Assembly (NCBI GenBank): GCA_000004985.1 | Contig: GG739012.1 | Strand: one strand, 5' to 3' | From: Naegleria gruberi | Taxonomy: Eukaryota | DNA length: 11,321 nucleotides | Shown: piece by piece, positions 1-11,321 of the stretch | Numbering within the stretch: position 1 is the stretch's first letter | How the letters are laid out: every line of letters begins with the position of its first letter | Notes under the pieces: model-generated | Databases searched by the model: none | Told to the model about the DNA's origin: nothing | Seen by the model: the letters and a program-made list of their open reading frames with translations, nothing else | Made by a program: the position numbers and the translations under genes

Positions 1-38
1 CCACATTCTCACATGAAAGTTAAGGAAGTTGAACTTGT

Positions 39-83
39 CTATCAGAGAATTTGATTATTAAATGTTTCGAATATATAACATAC
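39..83 (-). other. Spliceosomal intron of 45 nt in the P450 gene (GTATGT...GATAG). A possible 26-nt micro-exon lies at 13-38 and continues the I-helix as TSSTSLTF, followed by a GTGAGA donor at 7-12.
   Basis: The minus strand reads GAG|GTATGTTATATATTCGAAACATTTAATAATCAAATTCTCTGATAG|ACAAGTTCAACTTCCTTAACTTTCAT|GTGAGA. Translating after the AG gives T-S-S-T-S-L-T-F, which completes AGFE-TSSTSL (the AGxETT I-helix signature). Without splicing the frame reaches TGA at 42-44. Confidence 0.55.
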
Positions 84-1097
84 CTCAAACCCAGCAAATA
101 AGACAATAAAAATAGCAGATAACAATTCAGACTTGGACAACTTTTCCTCCTCTTTTGTGGCAGCAGCAGATGATTTTAACAGCAAGGTCAATAAATCCTC
201 ATCATCCTTTTCTAGATAGGTATGATCATCGAATTCTTGTTGTTTCTTTTCAATCATAGAGTAGGTTGCTTGTTTGAATTTTTCCTTAGCATCTTTGTAT
301 CTTTTAAAGAAACCAAATGGGATAATCTCAAATAAATATTTTGGTAGTACGAAATTATAGATCAAACCATTGAGTAAGTTATTGATCCAATCATGAATTC
401 CATCTCTATGGGCAGCATCCTTATCAAAAATTCCAACATCATAATCAAAAGCAACTCTATTAATTACATCTAAAGTTATTGATTTGAGTTCATTACTAAT
501 GTTTACCTTTCTAATTGTACCATCTGATTCTGAGCCATAAATTGATTTCCAAAATTTGATCATCTTTTTGCATTCTTCAAGAGTAACTCTAAAGACGTTC
601 TTCAAGTGAGAAGAACTGCTGAATATTGGATTTGCTAGAGTTCTGTGCTTTCTCCAGATTGGATCATTGGAATCGGCTGAGAAAATATTCGGACCAAATA
701 TTCCAACTGGTTCGAACAAGTTTCCCTTTGAGACAGTCTTGTACTTTTTTACAAGGATTTCTCTAATCAAATTCTCATCATTTGAAATGTGAATTTGGCT
801 GAAAGTTCCAAGTTGAATTTTAACAACTTTAGCATTTGGATTATTCTTGAATGAATTTAGGGCACAATCATAAAGGTGATGAACATAAATCTTCCTATGA
901 ATCATACTATCAATCAGAGGAGGAAAAAAACTGACATATCCTGGTAAATGTTTAAATTTAAAGTAAATTGTAAAGAATGTAATTGTGTAGCGGATCAACA
1001 AATACGAAACAAGACAAACTATCAATAAAAATACATTGAAAAAAGACAGTGTAAACAATTGGTTGAATGAACCAATCAACCCGATCTCTTCTGTCAT
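84..1097 (-). CDS. Cytochrome P450, N-terminal about 338 aa, from the membrane anchor to the I-helix. The exon ends at a GAG|GTATGT donor.
   Basis: The minus-strand ORF begins MTEEIGLIGS... and has two hydrophobic N-terminal segments (LLIVCLVSYLLI, ITFFTIYF). A proline hinge FFPPLIDSM follows, then a P450-like GPNIFSADSNDPIWRKHRTLANPIFS segment. The exon ends ...SAIFIVLFAGFE directly at GTATGT, which fits the I-helix AGxE/TT motif being split by an intron. The reading frame is continuous from 1097 to 84. Confidence 0.85.
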
Positions 1098-1197
1098 TTT
1101 GATTCTGTGGTTGTTGTATTTTTTTTGAATAGTTCAAGGAGATGAGGATCAATTATTATTGGAAACCAAACTAATACATAAAACAAATTTAATTTAT

Positions 1198-1469
1198 TTA
1201 TTTGTTAGTAATTTGTAAACCACACAAAACATAACATCCTTCAATGAGGTTCATATCTTCATCATACATTTGAACACTTCTTAAAGATCCCTCTCTGAGA
1301 GCAGTAACTGGAATAATGTTTTCACAAACGAATTTGTCAGCTGAGACCTTATTCTTATCCCAAATTGAGATTTGGAGGTTGGCAAGATCAGGTGCAGCAA
1401 CATCAAACTCAAAACTTGTGTTATATGTTGGATTCCAACCATTATCCCAAACAGTAGCTGTACTGAAAG
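1198..1469 (-). CDS. Phosphoinositide-specific phospholipase C (delta-like), C-terminal end of the C2 domain with stop codon. The fragment runs into the 980-N gap upstream.
   Basis: The minus-strand translation is ...FSTATVWDNGWNPTYNTSFEFDVAAPDLANLQISIWDKNKVSADKFVCENIIPVTALREGSLRSVQMYDEDMNLIEGCYVLCGLQITNK*. It aligns with the PLC-delta C2 C-terminus ([31 protein letters not shown]...[22 protein letters not shown]). The stop TAA is at 1198-1200 on the minus strand. Confidence 0.8.
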
Positions 1470-2449
1470 NNNNNNNNNNNNNNNNNNNNNNNNNNNNNNN
1501 NNNNNNNNNNNNNNNNNNNNNNNNNNNNNNNNNNNNNNNNNNNNNNNNNNNNNNNNNNNNNNNNNNNNNNNNNNNNNNNNNNNNNNNNNNNNNNNNNNNN
1601 NNNNNNNNNNNNNNNNNNNNNNNNNNNNNNNNNNNNNNNNNNNNNNNNNNNNNNNNNNNNNNNNNNNNNNNNNNNNNNNNNNNNNNNNNNNNNNNNNNNN
1701 NNNNNNNNNNNNNNNNNNNNNNNNNNNNNNNNNNNNNNNNNNNNNNNNNNNNNNNNNNNNNNNNNNNNNNNNNNNNNNNNNNNNNNNNNNNNNNNNNNNN
1801 NNNNNNNNNNNNNNNNNNNNNNNNNNNNNNNNNNNNNNNNNNNNNNNNNNNNNNNNNNNNNNNNNNNNNNNNNNNNNNNNNNNNNNNNNNNNNNNNNNNN
1901 NNNNNNNNNNNNNNNNNNNNNNNNNNNNNNNNNNNNNNNNNNNNNNNNNNNNNNNNNNNNNNNNNNNNNNNNNNNNNNNNNNNNNNNNNNNNNNNNNNNN
2001 NNNNNNNNNNNNNNNNNNNNNNNNNNNNNNNNNNNNNNNNNNNNNNNNNNNNNNNNNNNNNNNNNNNNNNNNNNNNNNNNNNNNNNNNNNNNNNNNNNNN
2101 NNNNNNNNNNNNNNNNNNNNNNNNNNNNNNNNNNNNNNNNNNNNNNNNNNNNNNNNNNNNNNNNNNNNNNNNNNNNNNNNNNNNNNNNNNNNNNNNNNNN
2201 NNNNNNNNNNNNNNNNNNNNNNNNNNNNNNNNNNNNNNNNNNNNNNNNNNNNNNNNNNNNNNNNNNNNNNNNNNNNNNNNNNNNNNNNNNNNNNNNNNNN
2301 NNNNNNNNNNNNNNNNNNNNNNNNNNNNNNNNNNNNNNNNNNNNNNNNNNNNNNNNNNNNNNNNNNNNNNNNNNNNNNNNNNNNNNNNNNNNNNNNNNNN
2401 NNNNNNNNNNNNNNNNNNNNNNNNNNNNNNNNNNNNNNNNNNNNNNNNN
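1470..2449. other. Assembly gap of 980 N. It hides the PLC EF-hand remainder, the X and Y catalytic domains and most of the C2 domain.
   Basis: The stretch is an unbroken run of n. The PLC coding sequence enters it from both sides on the minus strand. Confidence 0.95.
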
Positions 2450-2457
2450 TGTTTATA

Positions 2458-2825
2458 TTAAGCTGATTTCATATTCAAGTTTTTGAAAAGTTTGTTGACT
2501 TCTTGAATGGATAATTTGTTATCATTATTTTCATCAGCCATCATCCAATATCTCATCATGATAACACTCATCGGAGGAGTATCTTTCAAGTGAATAGATC
2601 TTAACAAATAATTTAAAGAAACGAGGAAGGAAATAAATTCTTCTGTCTTTGAAAATATAATATCTAACTGTTCTTGAGCTGATCCATATTTAATTGTAAT
2701 GGTACGATCAACATTATATCCATGCTCCTTCTTCTTTGATTTTAAATGTTCTGCATACTTGAAGAAAGCTCCAGAATCGGTAAAGGAATTACCAGTGATA
2801 ACCTTTTTGATATCTTTCAATAAAA
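2458..2825 (-). CDS. PLC exon 2, covering the rest of the PH domain and the start of the first EF-hand. An in-frame TAA lies at 2458-2460, directly at the gap edge.
   Basis: The minus-strand translation after the AAAATAG acceptor is (V)LLKDIKKVITGNSFTDSGAFFKYAEHLKSKKKEHGYNVDRTITIKYGSAQEQLDIIFSKTEEFISFLVSLNYLLRSIHLKDTPPMSVIMMRYWMMADENNDNKLSIQEVNKLFKNLNMKSA*. The ADENNDNKLSIQEVNKLFKNLN segment matches the PLC-delta EF-hand start ([22 protein letters not shown]). IKKVITGNSFTD...FFKYAEH matches the PLC-delta PH domain (IQEVRMGHRTEGLEKFARD). Confidence 0.8.
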
Positions 2826-2879
2826 CTATTTTAAATAATAAATCCAATTAATTTTCAATTTTTCGTATTCAATACTAAC
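2826..2879 (-). other. 54-nt intron of the PLC gene (G|GTTAGT...AAAATAG), phase 1.
   Basis: The minus strand reads ...AAA GGA AAT G|GTTAGTATTGAATACGAAAAATTGAAAATTAATTGGATTTATTATTTAAAATAG|TT TTA TTG. Joining restores a continuous PH-domain reading frame: ...RKGN-V-LLKDIKK. Unspliced, a TAG falls immediately at the donor. Confidence 0.7.
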
Positions 2880-3141
2880 CATTTCCTTTTCTTGATTTTT
2901 TCTTCTCTATTCTAAAGAATGTATAATTATCATCCAAAAAGATCATGTGTTTCTTTGGTTTGATCATCTTTTCCTTTGATTGTATATTTGCTTCGCAACC
3001 AAGTCCTTTCTTTAAAAGCTCCAAAGTTGATTTTACCATTGTGCTATCCCTAAAGTATCTATCAAATACTACATCACGTGTTTGTTCCGACAATTCTAAT
3101 AAATCAGATATCTCTGATATAGTCTTTGTCATTTGGGCCAT
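2880..3141 (-). CDS. PLC exon 1, from the start codon through the N-terminal half of the PH domain.
   Basis: The ATG is at 3139-3141 on the minus strand. The translation is MAQMTKTISEISDLLELSEQTRDVVFDRYFRDSTMVKSTLELLKKGLGCEANIQSKEKMIKPKKHMIFLDDNYTFFRIEKKKSRKGN. The STLELLKKGLGCEANIQSKEKMIKPKKHMIFLDDNYTFFRI segment aligns with the PLC-delta1 PH domain ([33 protein letters not shown]). Confidence 0.75.
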
Positions 3142-3621
3142 TTTCTCTTTACCTGTTTGTTATTGATAATAATCACAATATTATAATTAAATTAATTTTG
3201 TGTTGGCGATGACTATTGTTTGCAGTACTTTTTTTTGATGGTTGAAATTAACGGATGAATTTGGAAGCTGAAATGAACTTGCTATTGTTTAACTATAATA
3301 ACTCCTTCATCTCTTCTATCACTGAAGACGAATAATCCCACTTGGATGAGTTACCATTATACCGAGTATTCACCCAACAAGAATGAAAGGAAAGAATATG
3401 TATTACAAAGAAAAGGAAGATTAAAAAATCTAATTGCAGTTCAAGAATGGAATTTATGAGAATTTAAGAACAATGTCCTTCATAAATTATATTACTCGAT
3501 ATGATTATATCATAAAATACCAACAAATTAACAAATTGATTCAAGTATTGTTTACAACCTAAATTAAATACCTTAAACAGTCCCATCACCACAAAATATC
3601 CCAATATCCATTTATAGAACC
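3142..3621. promoter_or_regulatory. Divergent intergenic region, presumably a bidirectional promoter, between the PLC gene (minus strand, ATG 3141) and the D-lactate dehydrogenase gene (plus strand, ATG 3622).
   Basis: This 480-bp AT-rich non-coding stretch is flanked by two outward-facing start codons. I recognise no specific motifs. The call rests on position only. Confidence 0.35.
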
Positions 3622-3817
3622 ATGTTGTTTAAAAGAATCCTAAAAAAAATGTCTATAGTGAAGAGTTGCTCTCGAACGATCACATTCTTCAGCTCGAAAC
3701 CCTACGTAAAACAATCATTCAATGCTCTGAATGAAAAGGTGAATGAAAAATTCAGAAAAGATTATTCTTTTCTTCAACAATATTATTCTGGATCAAAATT
3801 GTTGATCGATTCGAAAG
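3622..3817 (+). CDS. D-lactate dehydrogenase (LdhA-type D-isomer-specific 2-hydroxyacid dehydrogenase), exon 1. It encodes an N-terminal extension with a basic, possibly organelle-targeting, leader and ends at the AAG|GTAAGA donor.
   Basis: The ORF reads MLFKRILKKMSIVKSCSRTITFFSSKPYVKQSFNALNEKVNEKFRKDYSFLQQYYSGSKLLIDSK(G). The leader is rich in K, R and S and has no acidic residues in its first 30 aa. The consensus donor AAAG|GTAAGA at 3818 is phase-compatible with the acceptor TTTTAG| at 3863: the codon G+GT gives Gly. Confidence 0.6.
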
Positions 3818-3863
3818 GTAAGATTGCTTCCGAACAAGTTTTGTATTGAGTGATTGGTTTTAG

Positions 3864-4136
3864 GTACTAGTCCGTATGATTATTTGCCAAATTATGAAAG
3901 ATTCATGTCGTATTCTGGTCCTTTTCATTTAAAATTTGTTGATGCTAGATTGACTGAATCGACTGTAGAACTTGCTGAACATTCTGATTTTGTATCTGTG
4001 TTTGTGAATGATTGTTTGAATAGAAATGTATTACAGACATTGAGTCACAAGTATGGAATTAAATGTGTTGCCCTGAGAAGTGCTGGATTTAACAATGTTG
4101 ATTTGTCAGCAGCAAGTGAATTTGGAGTGAAAGTTT
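3864..4136 (+). CDS. ldhA-like: D-lactate dehydrogenase exon 2, covering the N-terminal substrate-binding domain. It runs into a 50-N gap.
   Basis: The translation is (G)[90 protein letters not shown]. It aligns nearly residue-for-residue with E. coli LdhA, from STKQYDKKYLQQVNESFGFELEFFDFLLTEKTAKTANGCEAVCIFVNDDGSRPVLEEL to [27 protein letters not shown]. Confidence 0.85.
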
Positions 4137-4186
4137 NNNNNNNNNNNNNNNNNNNNNNNNNNNNNNNNNNNNNNNNNNNNNNNNNN
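4137..4186. other. 50-N gap of unknown true size. It hides the NAD-binding and catalytic core of the D-lactate dehydrogenase, about 200 codons.
   Basis: The sequence before the gap ends at LdhA residue about 95. The sequence after it resumes at about residue 290. Confidence 0.9.
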
Positions 4187-4346
4187 ACCTTCACAAGATT
4201 ATTGACATTCCCTAATGTAATTGTAACANCCTCATCAAGCTTTCTTTACTCAAGAGGCAATTTCTAACATTGCACAAACAACGCTTGAGAGTCTTTACAG
4301 TTTTGATATTAGTGGTCAAATCAAACAACCAAATGTTTTGAACTAA
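4187..4346 (+). CDS. ldhA-like: D-lactate dehydrogenase C-terminal segment with stop codon. An apparent +1 frameshift falls at the ambiguous base 4229.
   Basis: Frame 2 gives [14 protein letters not shown] up to 4228. Frame 3 from 4230 gives [38 protein letters not shown] with TAA at 4344-4346. Joined without the n, this is [33 protein letters not shown], which matches E. coli LdhA RLSACHNVLFTGHQAFLTAEALTSISQTTLQNL. Confidence 0.8.
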
Positions 4347-4378
4347 TAATAATATTTCAAATTTATCAGAGAATTTTC

Positions 4379-4403
4379 TTATTTACACTTATTAAGAAAT
4401 CAG
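4379..4403. repeat. Copy A of a 25-nt motif, TTATTTACACTTATTAAGAAATCAG. It lies about 35 nt downstream of the D-LDH stop codon.
   Basis: It matches copy B (4575-4599, TTATTTACACTAATTTACAAATCAG) at 22 of 25 positions, and the first 11 nt are identical. Confidence 0.5.
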
Positions 4404-4574
4404 GTCCTAGCTTTTCCAATTTGAGATGCATCTAAAATGGAATCCTTTACATCCTTAGCATCCAAATTTCTGATAGATCCAAAGAAAAAGACTAAACGCA
4501 AGTAAACTACACTATTTGATTTTAAGGAATAAATAGAAACAACCCATCTATCGCAGTTTGAAAATTTGATAATT

Positions 4575-4599
4575 TTATTTACACTAATTTACAAATCAG
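4575..4599. repeat. Copy B of the same 25-nt motif. It overlaps the stop codon and 3' end of the second P450 gene.
   Basis: See copy A. Both copies sit in the 240-bp convergent 3' intergenic region between the D-LDH and P450 genes. Confidence 0.5.
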
Positions 4600-5020
4600 A
4601 TCTTGGTTTGAGCATGATGTGCATATTATCTGGTCTTACTGTGACACCAGGTACTTCAACCACTCTTTCCTTTGGATTGGTTTCATCATTGGTCAATTCC
4701 AATTCATAGAATTGGAGCAATCTTACAAGCATGACAAATGCTTCGATTTGAGCAAACTTGAATCCAATACACTTTCTATTACCCATAGAGAATGGAATCC
4801 AGGTAAAATTGTGTTGAATTCTCAATTGTTCTTCAGCATCCATTGGATATCTTTCAGGAATGAATTCTAATGGTTTCTCCCAATTCTTTTCACTTCTATT
4901 GGCAGCAAAAATGTTAATGTGAATGGTAGTATCCTTTGGAATGGAAAATTCACCCAAGGTAGTACTCTTCTTAGCAACTCTAAAAACATTGACAACTGGT
5001 GGATGCAAACGAAGAGCTCC
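4589..5020 (-). CDS. Cytochrome P450 number 2, C-terminal exon carrying the K-helix ExxR region, the PERF-like motif and the heme-binding cysteine loop. It continues into the 3959-N gap.
   Basis: The minus-strand translation is GALRLHPPVVNVFRVAKKSTTLGEFSIPKDTTIHINIFAANRSEKNWEKPLEFIPERYPMDAEEQLRIQHNFTWIPFSMGNRKCIGFKFAQIEAFVMLVRLLQFYELELTNDETNPKERVVEVPGVTVRPDNMHIMLKPRSDL*. FSMGNRKCIG is the FxxGxRxCxG heme ligand signature, PERY is a PERF variant, and LRLHPP is the conserved post-ExxR segment. The stop TAA is at 4589-4591 on the minus strand. Confidence 0.9.
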   Translation of the reverse strand, partial: GALRLHPPVVNVFRVAKKSTTLGEFSIPKDTTIHINIFAANRSEKNWEKPLEFIPERYPMDAEEQLRIQHNFTWIPFSMGNRKCIGFKFAQIEAFVMLVRLLQFYELELTNDETNPKERVVEVPGVTVRPDNMHIMLKPRSDL

Positions 5021-8000
5021 NNNNNNNNNNNNNNNNNNNNNNNNNNNNNNNNNNNNNNNNNNNNNNNNNNNNNNNNNNNNNNNNNNNNNNNNNNNNNNNN
5101 NNNNNNNNNNNNNNNNNNNNNNNNNNNNNNNNNNNNNNNNNNNNNNNNNNNNNNNNNNNNNNNNNNNNNNNNNNNNNNNNNNNNNNNNNNNNNNNNNNNN
5201 NNNNNNNNNNNNNNNNNNNNNNNNNNNNNNNNNNNNNNNNNNNNNNNNNNNNNNNNNNNNNNNNNNNNNNNNNNNNNNNNNNNNNNNNNNNNNNNNNNNN
5301 NNNNNNNNNNNNNNNNNNNNNNNNNNNNNNNNNNNNNNNNNNNNNNNNNNNNNNNNNNNNNNNNNNNNNNNNNNNNNNNNNNNNNNNNNNNNNNNNNNNN
5401 NNNNNNNNNNNNNNNNNNNNNNNNNNNNNNNNNNNNNNNNNNNNNNNNNNNNNNNNNNNNNNNNNNNNNNNNNNNNNNNNNNNNNNNNNNNNNNNNNNNN
5501 NNNNNNNNNNNNNNNNNNNNNNNNNNNNNNNNNNNNNNNNNNNNNNNNNNNNNNNNNNNNNNNNNNNNNNNNNNNNNNNNNNNNNNNNNNNNNNNNNNNN
5601 NNNNNNNNNNNNNNNNNNNNNNNNNNNNNNNNNNNNNNNNNNNNNNNNNNNNNNNNNNNNNNNNNNNNNNNNNNNNNNNNNNNNNNNNNNNNNNNNNNNN
5701 NNNNNNNNNNNNNNNNNNNNNNNNNNNNNNNNNNNNNNNNNNNNNNNNNNNNNNNNNNNNNNNNNNNNNNNNNNNNNNNNNNNNNNNNNNNNNNNNNNNN
5801 NNNNNNNNNNNNNNNNNNNNNNNNNNNNNNNNNNNNNNNNNNNNNNNNNNNNNNNNNNNNNNNNNNNNNNNNNNNNNNNNNNNNNNNNNNNNNNNNNNNN
5901 NNNNNNNNNNNNNNNNNNNNNNNNNNNNNNNNNNNNNNNNNNNNNNNNNNNNNNNNNNNNNNNNNNNNNNNNNNNNNNNNNNNNNNNNNNNNNNNNNNNN
6001 NNNNNNNNNNNNNNNNNNNNNNNNNNNNNNNNNNNNNNNNNNNNNNNNNNNNNNNNNNNNNNNNNNNNNNNNNNNNNNNNNNNNNNNNNNNNNNNNNNNN
6101 NNNNNNNNNNNNNNNNNNNNNNNNNNNNNNNNNNNNNNNNNNNNNNNNNNNNNNNNNNNNNNNNNNNNNNNNNNNNNNNNNNNNNNNNNNNNNNNNNNNN
6201 NNNNNNNNNNNNNNNNNNNNNNNNNNNNNNNNNNNNNNNNNNNNNNNNNNNNNNNNNNNNNNNNNNNNNNNNNNNNNNNNNNNNNNNNNNNNNNNNNNNN
6301 NNNNNNNNNNNNNNNNNNNNNNNNNNNNNNNNNNNNNNNNNNNNNNNNNNNNNNNNNNNNNNNNNNNNNNNNNNNNNNNNNNNNNNNNNNNNNNNNNNNN
6401 NNNNNNNNNNNNNNNNNNNNNNNNNNNNNNNNNNNNNNNNNNNNNNNNNNNNNNNNNNNNNNNNNNNNNNNNNNNNNNNNNNNNNNNNNNNNNNNNNNNN
6501 NNNNNNNNNNNNNNNNNNNNNNNNNNNNNNNNNNNNNNNNNNNNNNNNNNNNNNNNNNNNNNNNNNNNNNNNNNNNNNNNNNNNNNNNNNNNNNNNNNNN
6601 NNNNNNNNNNNNNNNNNNNNNNNNNNNNNNNNNNNNNNNNNNNNNNNNNNNNNNNNNNNNNNNNNNNNNNNNNNNNNNNNNNNNNNNNNNNNNNNNNNNN
6701 NNNNNNNNNNNNNNNNNNNNNNNNNNNNNNNNNNNNNNNNNNNNNNNNNNNNNNNNNNNNNNNNNNNNNNNNNNNNNNNNNNNNNNNNNNNNNNNNNNNN
6801 NNNNNNNNNNNNNNNNNNNNNNNNNNNNNNNNNNNNNNNNNNNNNNNNNNNNNNNNNNNNNNNNNNNNNNNNNNNNNNNNNNNNNNNNNNNNNNNNNNNN
6901 NNNNNNNNNNNNNNNNNNNNNNNNNNNNNNNNNNNNNNNNNNNNNNNNNNNNNNNNNNNNNNNNNNNNNNNNNNNNNNNNNNNNNNNNNNNNNNNNNNNN
7001 NNNNNNNNNNNNNNNNNNNNNNNNNNNNNNNNNNNNNNNNNNNNNNNNNNNNNNNNNNNNNNNNNNNNNNNNNNNNNNNNNNNNNNNNNNNNNNNNNNNN
7101 NNNNNNNNNNNNNNNNNNNNNNNNNNNNNNNNNNNNNNNNNNNNNNNNNNNNNNNNNNNNNNNNNNNNNNNNNNNNNNNNNNNNNNNNNNNNNNNNNNNN
7201 NNNNNNNNNNNNNNNNNNNNNNNNNNNNNNNNNNNNNNNNNNNNNNNNNNNNNNNNNNNNNNNNNNNNNNNNNNNNNNNNNNNNNNNNNNNNNNNNNNNN
7301 NNNNNNNNNNNNNNNNNNNNNNNNNNNNNNNNNNNNNNNNNNNNNNNNNNNNNNNNNNNNNNNNNNNNNNNNNNNNNNNNNNNNNNNNNNNNNNNNNNNN
7401 NNNNNNNNNNNNNNNNNNNNNNNNNNNNNNNNNNNNNNNNNNNNNNNNNNNNNNNNNNNNNNNNNNNNNNNNNNNNNNNNNNNNNNNNNNNNNNNNNNNN
7501 NNNNNNNNNNNNNNNNNNNNNNNNNNNNNNNNNNNNNNNNNNNNNNNNNNNNNNNNNNNNNNNNNNNNNNNNNNNNNNNNNNNNNNNNNNNNNNNNNNNN
7601 NNNNNNNNNNNNNNNNNNNNNNNNNNNNNNNNNNNNNNNNNNNNNNNNNNNNNNNNNNNNNNNNNNNNNNNNNNNNNNNNNNNNNNNNNNNNNNNNNNNN
7701 NNNNNNNNNNNNNNNNNNNNNNNNNNNNNNNNNNNNNNNNNNNNNNNNNNNNNNNNNNNNNNNNNNNNNNNNNNNNNNNNNNNNNNNNNNNNNNNNNNNN
7801 NNNNNNNNNNNNNNNNNNNNNNNNNNNNNNNNNNNNNNNNNNNNNNNNNNNNNNNNNNNNNNNNNNNNNNNNNNNNNNNNNNNNNNNNNNNNNNNNNNNN
7901 NNNNNNNNNNNNNNNNNNNNNNNNNNNNNNNNNNNNNNNNNNNNNNNNNNNNNNNNNNNNNNNNNNNNNNNNNNNNNNNNNNNNNNNNNNNNNNNNNNNN

Positions 8001-8979
8001 NNNNNNNNNNNNNNNNNNNNNNNNNNNNNNNNNNNNNNNNNNNNNNNNNNNNNNNNNNNNNNNNNNNNNNNNNNNNNNNNNNNNNNNNNNNNNNNNNNNN
8101 NNNNNNNNNNNNNNNNNNNNNNNNNNNNNNNNNNNNNNNNNNNNNNNNNNNNNNNNNNNNNNNNNNNNNNNNNNNNNNNNNNNNNNNNNNNNNNNNNNNN
8201 NNNNNNNNNNNNNNNNNNNNNNNNNNNNNNNNNNNNNNNNNNNNNNNNNNNNNNNNNNNNNNNNNNNNNNNNNNNNNNNNNNNNNNNNNNNNNNNNNNNN
8301 NNNNNNNNNNNNNNNNNNNNNNNNNNNNNNNNNNNNNNNNNNNNNNNNNNNNNNNNNNNNNNNNNNNNNNNNNNNNNNNNNNNNNNNNNNNNNNNNNNNN
8401 NNNNNNNNNNNNNNNNNNNNNNNNNNNNNNNNNNNNNNNNNNNNNNNNNNNNNNNNNNNNNNNNNNNNNNNNNNNNNNNNNNNNNNNNNNNNNNNNNNNN
8501 NNNNNNNNNNNNNNNNNNNNNNNNNNNNNNNNNNNNNNNNNNNNNNNNNNNNNNNNNNNNNNNNNNNNNNNNNNNNNNNNNNNNNNNNNNNNNNNNNNNN
8601 NNNNNNNNNNNNNNNNNNNNNNNNNNNNNNNNNNNNNNNNNNNNNNNNNNNNNNNNNNNNNNNNNNNNNNNNNNNNNNNNNNNNNNNNNNNNNNNNNNNN
8701 NNNNNNNNNNNNNNNNNNNNNNNNNNNNNNNNNNNNNNNNNNNNNNNNNNNNNNNNNNNNNNNNNNNNNNNNNNNNNNNNNNNNNNNNNNNNNNNNNNNN
8801 NNNNNNNNNNNNNNNNNNNNNNNNNNNNNNNNNNNNNNNNNNNNNNNNNNNNNNNNNNNNNNNNNNNNNNNNNNNNNNNNNNNNNNNNNNNNNNNNNNNN
8901 NNNNNNNNNNNNNNNNNNNNNNNNNNNNNNNNNNNNNNNNNNNNNNNNNNNNNNNNNNNNNNNNNNNNNNNNNNNNNNN
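5021..8979. other. Assembly gap of 3959 N. It contains the 5' portion of P450 number 2 (minus strand) and almost all of a vWA-domain protein gene (plus strand).
   Basis: It is an unbroken run of n. Coding sequence abuts both edges. Confidence 0.95.
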
Positions 8980-9446
8980 ATGCTGATCATTTCTATCAAT
9001 ATCTTGCTGATGAAACTGGTGGTAAGAGATTTGAACTAAAGGATATGGACTCTATGCAATCAATGTTCTTAGGTTTGTGTTATAGAGAAGCAGGTGAATT
9101 CCAAATGGTCAATCCAGACATGCAACAACATTTACAATCTTCTGATTCAGCAATTGTCAGACCTGAAGGCGAAGAATTGACAGATGAGGAATTGAAAACT
9201 ATTCACGAAGCTATCCACAACTCAACAATTTCATCAGTCACAATTAAGGGTTCTGAATATGAAATTACAACTAATGATGGTGCCTGTAGATTTGTTCGTA
9301 TTGGAGAAATTGTTTATATCGAACAAAACAAGGACAAAAAGACAAAATATGCCAAAATGGCTCTCGAAGGAAGAAAGATTACTTGGATAACACACAAAGG
9401 AAAGTGGGGCTTAATCGTTGATGACGAAATAAAGAGATCAATGTAA
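8980..9446 (+). CDS. C-terminal about 155 codons of a von Willebrand factor A (vWA) domain protein. The end of the vWA fold is followed by an uncharacterised tail of about 110 aa. The stop is TAA at 9444-9446.
   Basis: The translation is ADHFYQYLADETGGKRFELKDMDSMQSMFLGLCYREAGEFQ... and the tail ends ...KITWITHKGKWGLIVDDEIKRSM*. LADETGGKRFELKDMDSMQSMF follows the characteristic final strand and helix of vWA domains (L..LA..TGG.YF...D...L...F). I do not recognise the tail beyond that. Confidence 0.6.
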
Positions 9447-9538
9447 AGTATTTGTAATGTAATTTCTGATCAATCAGCAAATCATTCGTTTCCACTGGAG
9501 CAGATTATTGGGAATAACTTTTTGAATGTGACATAACT

Positions 9539-9800
9539 CTGAGGCTTCTAAAAAAAGGAAATTGAATAATAAAAAAATAAAAACACAATGTTCAAGTAAG
9601 ATATCTAAACTATCGACAGTATGAACTAAAAATAATGAAAAACCTCATAAAAAATGAGGTCAAAGCTGAGGATTCTAAATAAGGATATACAAATAGGTTT
9701 TAAAAAATAACAAAACAATTACCAAGATAGATATCCAAACAATCACTACAAGAAAATAAATTGTGTGAAAATTCAAGATCATAGAAAATTTCATAAAATG
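9539..9800. repeat. Diverged tandem duplication with two units of about 127 and 135 nt: U1 at 9539-9665 and U2 at 9666-9800. U1 contains a 7-bp hairpin (ACCTCAT-AAAAA-ATGAGGT) at 9642-9660.
   Basis: Both units start with CTGAGG(C/A)TTCTAAA.AAGGA. They share colinear blocks (AAAAAATAA..ACAAT; AAGATATCTAAACTATC vs AGATAGATATCCAAACAATC) and end CTCATAAAAAATG vs TTCATAAAATG. I estimate about 60-65% identity by eye. Confidence 0.55.
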
Positions 9801-9804
9801 TTAT

Positions 9805-9880
9805 CTCGAGTGCCGGGAATTGAACCCGGGTCGCCAGAGTGACAGTCACAGAACCACGTTTAGAGCCTTAATACCTTAGT
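9805..9880 (-). ncRNA. tRNA-like, Pol III-type element on the minus strand. It may be a tRNA-derived SINE head, a tRNA pseudogene or a small RNA gene. It has a canonical T-arm and B-box but an incomplete cloverleaf.
   Basis: The minus strand reads ...GGCTCTAAACGTGGTTCTGTGACTGTCACTCTGGCGAC-CCGGG-TTCAATT-CCCGG-CACTCGAG. CCGGG/TTCAATT/CCCGG is a perfect 5-bp T-stem with a GTTCAATTC T-loop, which is also the Pol III B-box GGTTCRANNCC. GTGACTGTCAC is a small variable-arm-like hairpin. A T4 run follows about 10 nt beyond the 3' end. No 5' segment complementary to the 3' acceptor strand CACTCGA lies within 90 nt upstream. Confidence 0.4.
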
Positions 9881-10385
9881 ACCATTTTTAGAAAGTAAAT
9901 TTGTTTTATTAATTCACTCTTCATTCATTGCTTCAAATTTGTTTCAACAGGTTCCTCAATACAATTAATGAAATCTCTCTTGTACATCATTTCTAATAGT
10001 TGTTGATTTTTAAACAGTTTTGTAAGCAAAGCATGAATCTAAGGTGATAATCTTTTGTATTCGGCAAAATAAATCTCGAGATGAGCGTTAAGAGGACAAT
10101 ATATTTGTTAGTGATTGAATATAAGTTTCCATCCAAATCACCAAAAAAAACTTACAGAACTTGTACAATTAATAAGTAACCTTAAAAAAAATGAGATTCG
10201 TCAGAGAGCGTCTTGAAGTGGTTATGTTATATTCCTCGAACTGGGGAGGAGGTTTGTGAGAATACTTCTTCCCAGAGTACTCCTGGTAAGGAACATTATC
10301 CACCAAATGCCTGCTTCAATGTCTTTTGGTATAAACAGCCGACGATTCAACACGGCGAAAATATTATCTGAATTTTCAACAGTAA

Positions 10386-11291
10386 AATTTCCTCATTCCA
10401 CGCAAGTACACTGTAGAATATTTTGATAATCTCAAAGCATTAGAAAGTGCTTCGGAAGGTGCTAGTGCTGTTGTTAGATTATTCTCCATGAAGAAACTTG
10501 GTGAGATCACTAAAACGGCTTCAGGATCAGGATTTTACATTCTTCCCAACACAATTATTACAAACAGCCACGTTGCTAATGAGATTGAATCCATTGGTAA
10601 GGTAAATGCGTACAACAACTCATGGAACATTAACAGTACAATCTCAGGAATGCCAAAAAAGTTAGAAACTTTGTTTTCAGGAAAAGCAATCAAATATTTC
10701 CAAATGGAAAAATCGTTTCCAGTTACCCAAAATTGGGTTGGCAGAGATCCAATTACTACCACTGTAGGAAACTTTGATTTCTTTGATATTACAGCAATGA
10801 ATTTCTCTGGTTCTCCAAATAAGGTGTTTTTCATACCCTCACCACGAATTTTGCAACCAAATGACGAAATTATTACCCTTTCGTATCCAGGAGACGAGAA
10901 TAAACCTCCTTTCTCTAGCAGTCAGAATTATGTAGACTGGGCTCCAAGTGAATCCTTCTTGAAGGACAATATCTTCAATGGTTATGGAACATTGTGTGCA
11001 AGTGTTGGAAAGATACTTCACCCCTATGATTTCACTCAAAATGGACTTGTAGAAAAAGTTGAAGACTTTTGTTACGATAAGTCCAACCAAGAGTGTTTAG
11101 CCAGTTCTGAAAGTTTAATTTTTGGAAGTTCTGGTGGTGTTATGATTTCTAAATTCTCCAAAGTGTATCACATTAAAGGATACACACTGATTGAGTTTCA
11201 CGCAGTCCATACTGGTGGAGAGTTTGTAAGATGTTCAACTTGTTTGAAACATTTTGGCTCAGCTATGGACAAAGCNTGGTTCACAGCATGA
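10386..11291 (+). CDS. Trypsin-like serine protease of the Trypsin_2 / HtrA-DegP-like chymotrypsin fold. This is the exon carrying the catalytic His, Asp and Ser. The true 5' end lies upstream and is unresolved, because the frame is open back to 10386 and the annotated Met at 10488 is internal.
   Basis: The translation ...YFDNLKALESASEGASAVVRLFSMKKLGEITKTASGSGFYILPNTIITNSHVANE matches the HtrA pattern (VVSI...GSGVII..GYVVTNNHVV). The downstream GSSGGVMI is the GxSGG catalytic serine motif. The catalytic His falls about 28 aa after the first Met, which is too close to be a real N-terminus. The ORF ends at TGA 11289-11291, but the ambiguous base at 11276 may hide a frameshift. Confidence 0.75.
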   Translation, partial: NFLIPRKYTVEYFDNLKALESASEGASAVVRLFSMKKLGEITKTASGSGFYILPNTIITNSHVANEIESIGKVNAYNNSWNINSTISGMPKKLETLFSGKAIKYFQMEKSFPVTQNWVGRDPITTTVGNFDFFDITAMNFSGSPNKVFFIPSPRILQPNDEIITLSYPGDENKPPFSSSQNYVDWAPSESFLKDNIFNGYGTLCASVGKILHPYDFTQNGLVEKVEDFCYDKSNQECLASSESLIFGSSGGVMISKFSKVYHIKGYTLIEFHAVHTGGEFVRCSTCLKHFGSAMDKXWFTA

Positions 11292-11321
11292 CACTTGGAG
11301 AATTTGTGAAAAATGTGAAAT

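What the first reader, a model, noticed from the sequence alone, without database searches (positions are those of the whole stretch)
3622..4346. Bacterial-type fermentative D-lactate dehydrogenase (LdhA family) in a spliced eukaryotic gene, with an internally repeated N-terminal extension
The plus-strand gene aligns closely with E. coli LdhA, both over the N-terminal domain (3864-4136) and over the C-terminal helix (4187-4346). It is clearly eukaryotic: it carries a 46-nt GTAAGA...TTTTAG intron that is phase-compatible across the junction. Exon 1 (3622-3817) adds an extension of about 65 aa that starts with a basic leader resembling a mitochondrial presequence, MLFKRILKKMSIVKSCSR. The rest of the extension (TITFFSSKPYVKQSFNALNEK...DYSFLQQYYSGSKLLIDSK) looks like a diverged second copy of the enzyme's own first 45 residues ([28 protein letters not shown]). 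Both segments align to LdhA STKQYDKKYLQQVNESFGFELEFFDF, and they share YSGS/YSGP and KLLID/LKFVD. That pattern suggests a partial 5' tandem duplication that became an N-terminal extension, or alternative first exons. LdhA-type NAD-dependent D-LDHs are patchily distributed in eukaryotes and often ascribed to bacterial ancestry.
Basis: partly seen in the sequence, partly recalled or inferred. Interest (0 to 1): 0.5.

Follow-up and report, generated by a model that had tools for sequence, protein, structure and literature searches.

The report
Naegleria D-lactate dehydrogenase gene, gapped assembly
This is an ordinary LdhA-type D-lactate dehydrogenase gene of the amoeba Naegleria gruberi, broken by an assembly gap; the supposed duplicated N-terminal extension is the enzyme's normal N-terminus followed by a lineage-specific insertion of about 45 residues.

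Summary
The window is a whole 11,321-nt Naegleria gruberi NEG-M scaffold, 44% N. The plus-strand gene at 3622/3649-4346 is a real, spliced, LdhA-type NAD-dependent D-lactate dehydrogenase.

A 99%-identical metagenome contig (L003) fills the 50-N gap with 662 nt. It gives a four-exon, 388-aa protein with the catalytic Arg/Glu/His and the NAD-binding motif intact. The 46-nt intron (3818-3863) is the only frame-preserving GT..AG solution. Its position and phase 1 are conserved in N. lovaniensis and in a third species.

The interpretation of exon 1 does not hold. TITFFSSKPYVKQSFNALNEK in exon 1 is the family's canonical first strand and helix (23.7 bits against a family N-terminus profile; AlphaFold places it as beta1/alpha1).

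Four tests for an internal duplication were negative: protein shuffles, DNA shuffles, a profile scan and hhalign. The basic leader MLFKRILKK comes from an upstream ATG found only in N. gruberi; the conserved start is 3649.

Orthologues are already annotated in Naegleria and Willaertia, and eukaryotic LdhA structures exist. Interest is low.

The parts
3622..3648 (+). Nine in-frame codons (MLFKRILKK) from an upstream ATG specific to N. gruberi. Their use is unknown and they are not conserved in orthologues.
   Evidence: only the window and L003 have an in-frame upstream ATG. N. lovaniensis has a stop one codon upstream; L001 and Willaertia have none. The AlphaFold pLDDT of this stretch is about 50.
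3649..3817 (+). Exon 1 from the conserved start codon (MSIVKSCSR...), ending in phase 1.
   Evidence: The start aligns with the MSLAKSQTR (L001) and MSLTNSTVK (Willaertia) starts, and all have an A-rich context before the ATG.
3676..3738 (+). The canonical first strand and helix (beta1-alpha1) of the catalytic domain: TITFFSSKPYVKQSFNALNEK.
   Evidence: A family N-terminus HMM scores 23.7 bits here and nowhere else. F, S, K and Y of FSSKPY are at least 90% conserved across 62 homologues. AlphaFold places the strand at residues 18-22 and the helix at 27-46 of the 156-aa model.
3739..3817 (+). Proximal half of the lineage-specific insertion (VNEKFRKDYSFLQQYYSGSKLLIDSK).
   Evidence: It is absent from all bacterial homologues and only about 12 residues long in Willaertia. 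It is predicted helical. The whole insertion (both halves) is 36-43% identical among Naegleria-clade orthologues, against 68-78% for the core.
3818..3863 (+). Intron 1: 46 nt, GTAAGA..TTTTAG, phase 1.
   Evidence: It is the unique frame-preserving solution. The same position and phase occur in L001 (42 nt) and N. lovaniensis (51 nt). Willaertia has no intron here.
3864..3919 (+). Distal half of the insertion ([19 protein letters not shown]), with the conserved motif (Y/F)LPNY.
Evidence: Third-codon-position variation among species in the motif fits coding constraint.
3920..4136 (+). Rest of the visible exon 2: beta2 (PFHLKFVD) through GFNNVD...GVKV of the catalytic domain.
   Evidence: Pfam PF00389 E 1.6e-13. 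E. coli LdhA alignment. The family profile scores 89.4 bits.
4137..4186 (.). A 50-N assembly gap. It stands for 662 nt holding the end of exon 2, intron 2 (47 nt), exon 3 (the NAD-binding domain), intron 3 (49 nt) and the start of exon 4.
   Evidence: L003 positions 853-1514 bridge the two flanks at 93-99% identity.
4187..4346 (+). The visible end of exon 4: ...[52 protein letters not shown], with stop TAA at 4344-4346. The catalytic His codon is at 4233-4235.
   Evidence: His352 is invariant in 62 homologues.
4229..4229 (.). A single N that is an extra, spurious base and causes an apparent frameshift.
   Evidence: L003 reads GTAACACCTCATCAA with no base at this place.

Best explanation
The locus is the Naegleria gruberi gene for an LdhA-type, NAD-dependent D-lactate dehydrogenase (D-isomer-specific 2-hydroxyacid dehydrogenase fold). 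It interconverts pyruvate + NADH and D-lactate + NAD+.

The gene has four exons and three short introns (46, 47 and 49 nt). In this scaffold its middle is hidden by an assembly gap.

Exon 1 encodes a short leader and then the enzyme's normal first strand and helix. Between helix alpha1 and strand beta2 the Naegleria clade carries a mostly helical insertion of about 45 residues, weakly conserved. A conserved phase-1 intron splits this insertion. It is most likely a surface excursion of the catalytic domain (inferred).

Translation most likely starts at the conserved ATG at 3649. The upstream ATG at 3622 is a peculiarity of N. gruberi.

Shown: homology, gene structure, conservation, and where the canonical N-terminus lies.

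Inferred: enzymatic activity, cytosolic location, and physiological role. Possible roles are fermentative pyruvate reduction, or use of D-lactate released from prey peptidoglycan as the Naegleria and euglenozoan literature proposes (the methylglyoxal pathway is a further possible source, from general knowledge).
For: Species: the P450 ORF at 42-1097(-) is 100% identical to XP_002668565.1 of N. gruberi, which sits on a contig of exactly 11,321 nt.

Family:
- Pfam PF00389 on the window protein.
- PF00389 plus PF02826 on the orthologue and on the ORFs of the same-species contig L003.
- The solved-structure sequence search puts LdhA-type D-LDHs on top by about 70-110 bits.
- Foldseek gives TM 0.82-0.89 (normalised to target) to the P. 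aeruginosa, Dictyostelium, Chlamydomonas and E. coli D-LDHs.

Completeness: L003 gives a 388-aa ORF. R291, E320 and H352, plus G205/G207/G210/D229, fall in invariant alignment columns.

Orthologues: N. lovaniensis 68%, N. fowleri, Willaertia 60%, and the L001 species 72%.

Intron.

Canonical N-terminus in exon 1.

Insertion rather than duplication.

Role in the literature: PMC9928731 and PMC7052976.
Against: No transcript data were available, so the 5' end, the start codon in use and the splicing are inferred from comparative sequence only.

The AlphaFold placement of beta1 is guided by the alignment supplied, so it is not fully independent evidence.

NCBIfam D-LDH and VanH models score below their curated cut-offs (196 vs 356 bits; 230 vs 540 bits). 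Those models represent other subfamilies.

Substrate specificity within the 2-hydroxyacid dehydrogenases cannot be proven from sequence.

The heterolobosean proteins depart from a nearly invariant VAEH motif (they read TADF) and, except in the L001 species, have an extra Gly in the GxGxxG loop. This could alter their properties.
Confidence: 0.85

Rival explanations
1. One reading: exon 1 is an N-terminal extension of about 65 aa, created by a partial 5' tandem duplication of the enzyme's first 45 or so residues. The true enzyme would then start in exon 2.
For: phmmer extended the E. coli LdhA alignment over [19 protein letters not shown] (query residues 67-86), though with low posterior probabilities. 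In N. gruberi alone, YSGS/YSGP and KLLID/LKFVD look alike, and there is a 12-nt repeat pair AAAATTGTTGAT/AAATTTGTTGAT.
Against: - The similarity is at chance level in protein shuffles (p 0.09-0.63), DNA shuffles (p 0.13-0.21) and hhalign (probability 0.16%).
- The family N-terminus profile hits only the exon-1 segment (23.7 bits) and not the supposed second copy.
- The look-alike motifs are not conserved in the L001 species or in N. lovaniensis.
- AlphaFold makes TITFF the first strand and leaves KLLIDSK as coil.
- Willaertia has the exon-1-type N-terminus joined almost directly to PFHLKF.
Confidence: 0.04
2. MLFKRILKK(MSIVKSCSR) is a working mitochondrial presequence. On this view the N. gruberi enzyme is mitochondrial, or is sent to two compartments through alternative start codons.
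For: The 18-residue leader has six basic and no acidic residues (read directly from the sequence). The ATG at 3622 is in frame, has an A at -3, and is conserved in the same-species contig L003.
Against: - The upstream in-frame ATG is absent from N. lovaniensis (stop one codon upstream), the L001 species (its upstream ATG is out of frame) and Willaertia.
- The annotated orthologues begin only 4-9 residues before beta1.
- AlphaFold confidence for the leader is about 50.
- No targeting predictor or transcription start data were available.
Confidence: 0.12
3. The insertion is a gene-model artefact: a larger intron removes it and the mature protein resembles the bacterial enzymes. Alternatively, exon 1 and exon 2 are alternative first exons.
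For: There is a GT at 3739 just after the canonical NEK. Willaertia lacks most of the insertion.
Against: - Enumerating all GT..AG pairs leaves only 3818-3863 as a frame-preserving, stop-free intron.
- The (Y/F)LPNY...GPFHLKF block is conserved at the protein level with third-position changes in three species.
- All length differences among species keep the frame.
- Exon 2 has no suitable ATG ahead of beta2 and lacks beta1.
Confidence: 0.03

Closest known systems
Naegleria lovaniensis XP_044548188.1 (UniRef A0AA88GNU9, 'D-lactate dehydrogenase'), with N. fowleri CAG4716576.1
   Same: Orthologues at 68-69% identity. They have the same canonical N-terminus, the same insertion of about 45 residues, and (checked in the N. 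lovaniensis DNA) the same phase-1 intron inside it.
   Different: They have no in-frame upstream ATG leader and only about 4 residues before beta1. The intron is 51 nt. The N. fowleri models are split in two or appear to read through intron 1.
Willaertia magna KAL9645606.1
   Same: A heterolobosean orthologue, 60-65% identical. It shares the TADF and GGSGKIG signatures.
   Different: It has only about 12 extra residues after alpha1 and no intron at that site.
E. coli LdhA, the fermentative D-lactate dehydrogenase (PDB 3wx0, 5z1z), and the P. aeruginosa and F. nucleatum enzymes (5z20, 5z21)
   Same: The same subfamily and fold, the same catalytic Arg/Glu/His and the same FVND and GFNNVD motifs. 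About 49% identity in the alignment.
   Different: The bacterial enzymes have no introns and no alpha1-beta2 insertion. They read VAEH where the heterolobosean enzymes read TADF, and they have the standard GxGxxG loop.
Eukaryotic LdhA-type enzymes with solved structures: Dictyostelium discoideum DicLDHA (7wn9, 8grv) and the Chlamydomonas pyruvate reductase (4zgs)
   Same: These show that LdhA-type D-LDHs in eukaryotes are already known and structurally characterised. Their N-terminus KITLFSSKPY matches the window's TITFFSSKPY.
   Different: Neither has the insertion. They are no closer to the Naegleria enzyme than bacterial ones are: about 306 bits each, whereas the best bacterial database hits reach 49-56% identity.

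Membership tests
LdhA-type NAD-dependent D-lactate dehydrogenase (D-isomer-specific 2-hydroxyacid dehydrogenase superfamily) | Two-domain architecture: the catalytic domain PF00389 wrapping the NAD-binding domain PF02826. | tested here: met
   PF00389 on the window's N-terminal part. PF00389 plus PF02826 on the ORFs of the same-species contig L003 and on the L001 orthologue (E 5.6e-26 and 1.5e-47). The NAD-binding domain itself lies in the window's N gap.
LdhA-type NAD-dependent D-lactate dehydrogenase (D-isomer-specific 2-hydroxyacid dehydrogenase superfamily) | Closest relatives are LdhA-type D-LDHs rather than other subfamilies (Lactobacillus-type D-LDH, HicDH, VanH, PGDH, GyaR, CtBP). | tested here: met
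   Solved-structure sequence search: the ten LdhA-type entries score 265-306 bits; the next are Lactobacillus D-LDH at 195, HicDH at 178, and PGDH/GyaR at 133 or less. Foldseek gives the same order. No formal phylogeny was built.
LdhA-type NAD-dependent D-lactate dehydrogenase (D-isomer-specific 2-hydroxyacid dehydrogenase superfamily) | The catalytic Arg-Glu-His triad. | tested here: met
   R291, E320 and H352 of the L003 protein fall in invariant columns of 12- and 62-sequence alignments. In the window only the His codon (4233-4235) is visible; Arg and Glu lie in the gap.
LdhA-type NAD-dependent D-lactate dehydrogenase (D-isomer-specific 2-hydroxyacid dehydrogenase superfamily) | The NAD-binding GxGxxG motif followed by the conserved Asp. 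| tested here: met
   G205, G207, G210 and D229 are invariant. N. gruberi, the other two Naegleria species and Willaertia have one extra Gly (GGSGKIG).
LdhA-type NAD-dependent D-lactate dehydrogenase (D-isomer-specific 2-hydroxyacid dehydrogenase superfamily) | Reaches the curated score cut-off of a named D-LDH model. | tested here: inconclusive
   NCBIfam best hits are vanH_gen at 230.6 bits (cut-off 540) and PRK08605 D-LDH at 196 bits (cut-off 356). Both are below cut-off, and no LdhA-specific model appeared among the NCBIfam matches.
LdhA-type NAD-dependent D-lactate dehydrogenase (D-isomer-specific 2-hydroxyacid dehydrogenase superfamily) | Pyruvate/D-lactate oxidoreductase activity with D stereospecificity. 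| not testable with these tools
   This needs an enzyme assay on recombinant protein.
Internal tandem (partial gene) duplication | Similarity between the two proposed copies that is significant at the protein or DNA level and conserved in orthologues. | tested here: not met
   Protein shuffles p 0.09-0.80. DNA shuffles p 0.13-0.21. One 12-nt repeat pair only. hhalign probability 0.16%. The family N-terminus HMM hits one site only.
Mitochondrial presequence / N-terminal targeting extension | An N-terminal extension ahead of the mature domain that is conserved among orthologues. | tested here: not met
   The upstream in-frame ATG occurs only in N. gruberi. Orthologues start 4-9 residues before beta1. 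Targeting predictors were not available.

The most novel reading that the evidence does not exclude
The helical segment of about 33-45 residues and the phase-1 intron inside it arose together in the Naegleria lineage; Willaertia has neither. Possible routes are insertion of an intron-bearing segment, or an intron gain whose flanks became coding sequence. On this reading the insertion gives the D-LDH a new property, such as a different oligomeric state or regulation. The extra upstream start codon in N. gruberi might add a second cellular location.
Probability: 0.1. Interest if true: 0.35.

Novelty: new member of a known kind. Interest (0 to 1): 0.14.

Why it matters
Mainly as housekeeping. The N. 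gruberi reference scaffold carries this gene broken by a gap and a spurious base. The full gene (388 aa, four exons) can be recovered from a public metagenome contig.

It also corrects a plausible-looking but wrong reading. What looked like a duplicated extension is the normal N-terminus plus a clade-specific insertion.

The insertion and its co-located conserved intron are a small, tidy case for studying how introns and protein insertions arise together in Heterolobosea.

LdhA-type D-LDHs in eukaryotes, their patchy distribution and their likely gene-transfer history are already documented. Nothing here would surprise a specialist.

Tried and rejected
- Alternative splice models that would remove the insertion: I enumerated all GT..AG pairs and only 3818-3863 works.
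- Duplication hypothesis: four independent tests were all negative.
I folded the N. lovaniensis orthologue and the window's 156-aa N-terminal part instead.
- Fetching the 223-kb N. gruberi scaffold that carries a 99%-identical P450, to look for a second D-LDH copy: the look-ups returned nothing.
- Sample provenance: SRR636569 appears in papers as one of the Tan et al. 2015 datasets used for methanogen genome binning. PRJEB11402 was not found in the paper library.
- No N. gruberi D-LDH protein model surfaced in the protein searches. The word-indexed search is not exhaustive and short fragments would rank below the listed hits, so I do not claim the gene is unannotated.
- No formal phylogeny was built. 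The statement that bacteria are at least as close as other eukaryotes rests on scores and identities only.

Full report
**What the window is**

The window is 11,321 nt at about 30% G+C. It holds 4,991 N in five runs: 1470-2449, 4137-4186, a single N at 4229, 5021-8979, and a single N at 11276.

The long minus-strand ORF at 42-1097 is a cytochrome P450. It is 100% identical to XP_002668565.1, 'predicted protein, partial [Naegleria gruberi]'. That protein is recorded on a contig of exactly 11,321 nt. The window is therefore a complete small scaffold of the N. gruberi NEG-M draft genome.

**Checking the observation**

- Exon 2 (3864-4136) matches Pfam 2-Hacid_dh at E 1.6e-13.
- Its best solved-structure match is E. 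coli LdhA (3wx0) at E 3.5e-15.
- The 3' piece (4187-4346) encodes the C-terminal part with the catalytic His: ...[13 protein letters not shown]...

- 4137-4186 is an assembly gap inside the gene.
- The N at 4229 is an extra base that shifts the frame.

**Filling the gap**

An exhaustive protein search found a 75-aa ORF identical to the window's exon-1 ORF apart from one residue (P0069; 97% over the matched stretch). Its contig is L003, 4,341 nt, from ENA assembly ERZ929261.
- L003 is 99% identical to the window downstream of the gap. Upstream it is 93% by BLAST, a figure that counts gap columns in the non-coding flank.
- It bridges the 50-N gap with 662 nt.

The complete gene has four exons and three introns:
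- 46 nt, GTAAGA..TTTTAG
- 47 nt, GTAAGT..AAATAG
- 49 nt, GTATGT..AAAAAG

It encodes 388 aa counted from the second ATG. In alignments of 12 and 62 homologues, R291, E320 and H352 (the catalytic triad) are invariant. So are G205/G207/G210/D229 (NAD binding) and the FVND and GFNNVD motifs.

**Family assignment**

A full-length orthologue from another species (L001/L002, 401 aa) was assembled from an environmental metagenome (run SRR636569).
- It carries PF00389 plus PF02826.
- Against solved structures, ten LdhA-type D-LDHs lead at 265-306 bits: Dictyostelium, E. coli, Salmonella, P. aeruginosa, F. nucleatum, Chlamydomonas and others (the organisms are named).
- Lactobacillus-type D-LDH follows at 195 bits, HicDH at 178, and other subfamilies lower.

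An AlphaFold model of the N. lovaniensis orthologue (pLDDT 86.5) gives the same ranking by Foldseek, with TM 0.82-0.89 normalised to target.

NCBIfam has only VanH and Lactobacillus-type D-LDH models. These are hit below their cut-offs.

The gene is LdhA-type.

**Orthologues and the intron**

The best database hits are these:
- N. lovaniensis XP_044548188.1: 389 aa, 68% identity, named D-lactate dehydrogenase by UniRef.
- N. fowleri models.
- Willaertia magna KAL9645606.1: 359 aa, 60% identity.

The next-best hits are bacterial (Chryseobacterium, Empedobacter, Thermotogae and others) at 49-56% identity.

Intron 1 lies at the homologous position and in phase 1 in three species:
- N. gruberi, 46 nt
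- the L001 species, 42 nt
- N. lovaniensis, 51 nt

In the window and in L001 the intron contains in-frame stops, so it must be removed. An enumeration of all GT..AG pairs shows 3818-3863 is the only frame-preserving, stop-free solution in the window. Willaertia has an uninterrupted ORF here.

**What exon 1 really is**

Bacterial and other homologues begin MK[IV][AT][FV]FS[ST]KPYD+helix. The window's exon 1 contains TITFFSSKPYVKQSFNALNEK.
- A profile built from 61 canonical N-termini hits this segment at 23.7 bits.
- The full N-terminal profile splits in two. Positions 2-27 align to residues 10-35, and positions 24-94 align to residues 76-147.
- MAFFT alignments agree. F, S, K and Y of FSSKPY are at least 90% conserved over 62 sequences.
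- AlphaFold models put TITFF (or TIASF) as strand beta1 and the following residues as helix alpha1, at pLDDT 84-92. PFHLKF forms beta2. KLLIDSK is coil. The models depend on the alignment supplied, so they are supporting rather than independent evidence.

Exon 1 therefore carries the enzyme's normal N-terminus. What is unusual is an insertion of about 45 residues between alpha1 and beta2: residues 31-75, window 3739-3817 plus 3864-3919.

The insertion varies among species:
- It is about 53 residues long in the L001 species and about 43 in N. lovaniensis.
- It is only about 12 residues in Willaertia.
- It is absent from bacteria, and from the Dictyostelium enzyme as far as the sequence alignment shows.
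- It is 36-43% identical among Naegleria-clade species, against 68-78% for the core.
- Its conserved motifs are KF.[KR]D..F[LV]..Y[YF] and NP..[YF]LPNY...GPF.
- It always keeps the reading frame.
- Synonymous-type third-position changes in the LPNY block fit coding constraint.

**The duplication claim**

Four tests were negative:
- Smith-Waterman scores of exon 1 against exon 2 segments, each against 5000 shuffles: p = 0.25, 0.09 and 0.63 in the window; 0.46 and 0.80 in L001.
- The DNA-level test: p = 0.13-0.21. The repeat finder reports only one 12-nt pair.
- The family N-terminus profile finds only one copy.
- hhalign between orthologue alignments of the two segments: probability 0.16%, one aligned column.

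The YSGS/YSGP and KLLID/LKFVD look-alikes are peculiar to N. gruberi. The L001 species has FESS/LTGP and IQTFQD, and N. lovaniensis has YQ-P/RSGP and SSLQD.

**The leader**

The upstream ATG at 3622 is in frame only in N. gruberi (the window and L003).
- In N. lovaniensis a stop lies one codon upstream of the start.
- In the L001 species the upstream ATG is out of frame (ATGATAAAAAAATG, seven A against eight).
- Willaertia has no in-frame upstream ATG.
- All four share an A-rich context at the conserved ATG, which is window 3649.

Whether N. gruberi uses 3622 cannot be decided without transcript data. As a conserved mitochondrial presequence it fails.

**Function and context**

By homology the protein reduces pyruvate to D-lactate with NADH, or runs the reverse reaction.

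The Naegleria pangenome paper lists D-lactate dehydrogenase among enzymes linked to the digestion of bacterial cell walls (PMC9928731). A euglenozoan comparative study places D-LDH downstream of MurNAc etherase. It also notes earlier evidence for multiple gene transfers of LDH genes between prokaryotes and eukaryotes (PMC7052976).

In my searches the heterolobosean enzymes are at least as close to bacterial as to Dictyostelium sequences. That fits this picture, but it is not a phylogeny.

**Verdict**

The gene call, the family and the intron are correct. The 'internally repeated N-terminal extension' is not.

This is a known kind of enzyme in a lineage where orthologues are already annotated. 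It carries a modest clade-specific insertion and a co-located conserved intron. Interest is low.

Noticed in passing
window 1-11321: The window is an entire small N. gruberi NEG-M scaffold. XP_002668565.1 is recorded on a contig of exactly 11,321 nt. 44% of the window is N.
   Followed up: yes
window 42-1097 (-) and 4589-5008 (-): Two cytochrome P450 genes flank the D-LDH gene. The first is also 99% identical, over 73% of its length, to XP_002670273.1 on a 223-kb N. gruberi scaffold. This small scaffold may therefore be a haplotig or a recent duplicate. The larger scaffold could not be fetched.
   Followed up: partly
window 4137-4186 and 4229: The 50-N gap understates the missing sequence, which is 662 nt in L003. 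The lone N at 4229 is an inserted base that breaks the reading frame.
   Followed up: yes
L003 residues 156-161 and 203-210 (hidden in the window's gap): The heterolobosean D-LDHs read EYSPAATADF where at least 90% of 62 homologues read AYSP.AVAEH. N. gruberi, N. lovaniensis, N. fowleri and Willaertia have an extra Gly in the NAD-binding loop (GGSGKIG); the L001 species does not. The conserved Cys of VCVFVND is Ser or Thr. The functional meaning is unknown.
   Followed up: no
N. fowleri models P0336, P0337 and P0338: The N. fowleri orthologue is annotated either as two separate genes (FDP41_002065 and FDP41_002066) or as a 405-aa protein. The extra residues of the 405-aa protein...LPVRTIGIENLK..., look like read-through of intron 1, since GTAAGA translates as VR.
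   Followed up: partly
L005 about 6160-6215 (N. lovaniensis): Intron 1 of the N. lovaniensis gene is 51 nt, a multiple of three, and has no in-frame stop. Retaining it would not break the ORF.
   Followed up: no
L001 289-302: In the L001 species an upstream ATG opens a 6-codon uORF (MIKKCR*) that overlaps the main start codon. One more A in the A-run would put it in frame.
   Followed up: partly
window 2458-3141 (-): Two adjacent minus-strand ORFs (129 and 88 aa). The first has a weak EF-hand match (E 0.0055, below the Pfam cut-off). They may be exons of a calcium-binding signalling protein.
   Followed up: no
window 8982-9446 (+) and 10488-11291 (+): The first is the C-terminal end of a gene emerging from the large gap, with no Pfam match. 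The second is a 267-aa ORF with a weak Trypsin_2 match (E 1.6e-4, below the cut-off), interrupted by the N at 11276.
   Followed up: no
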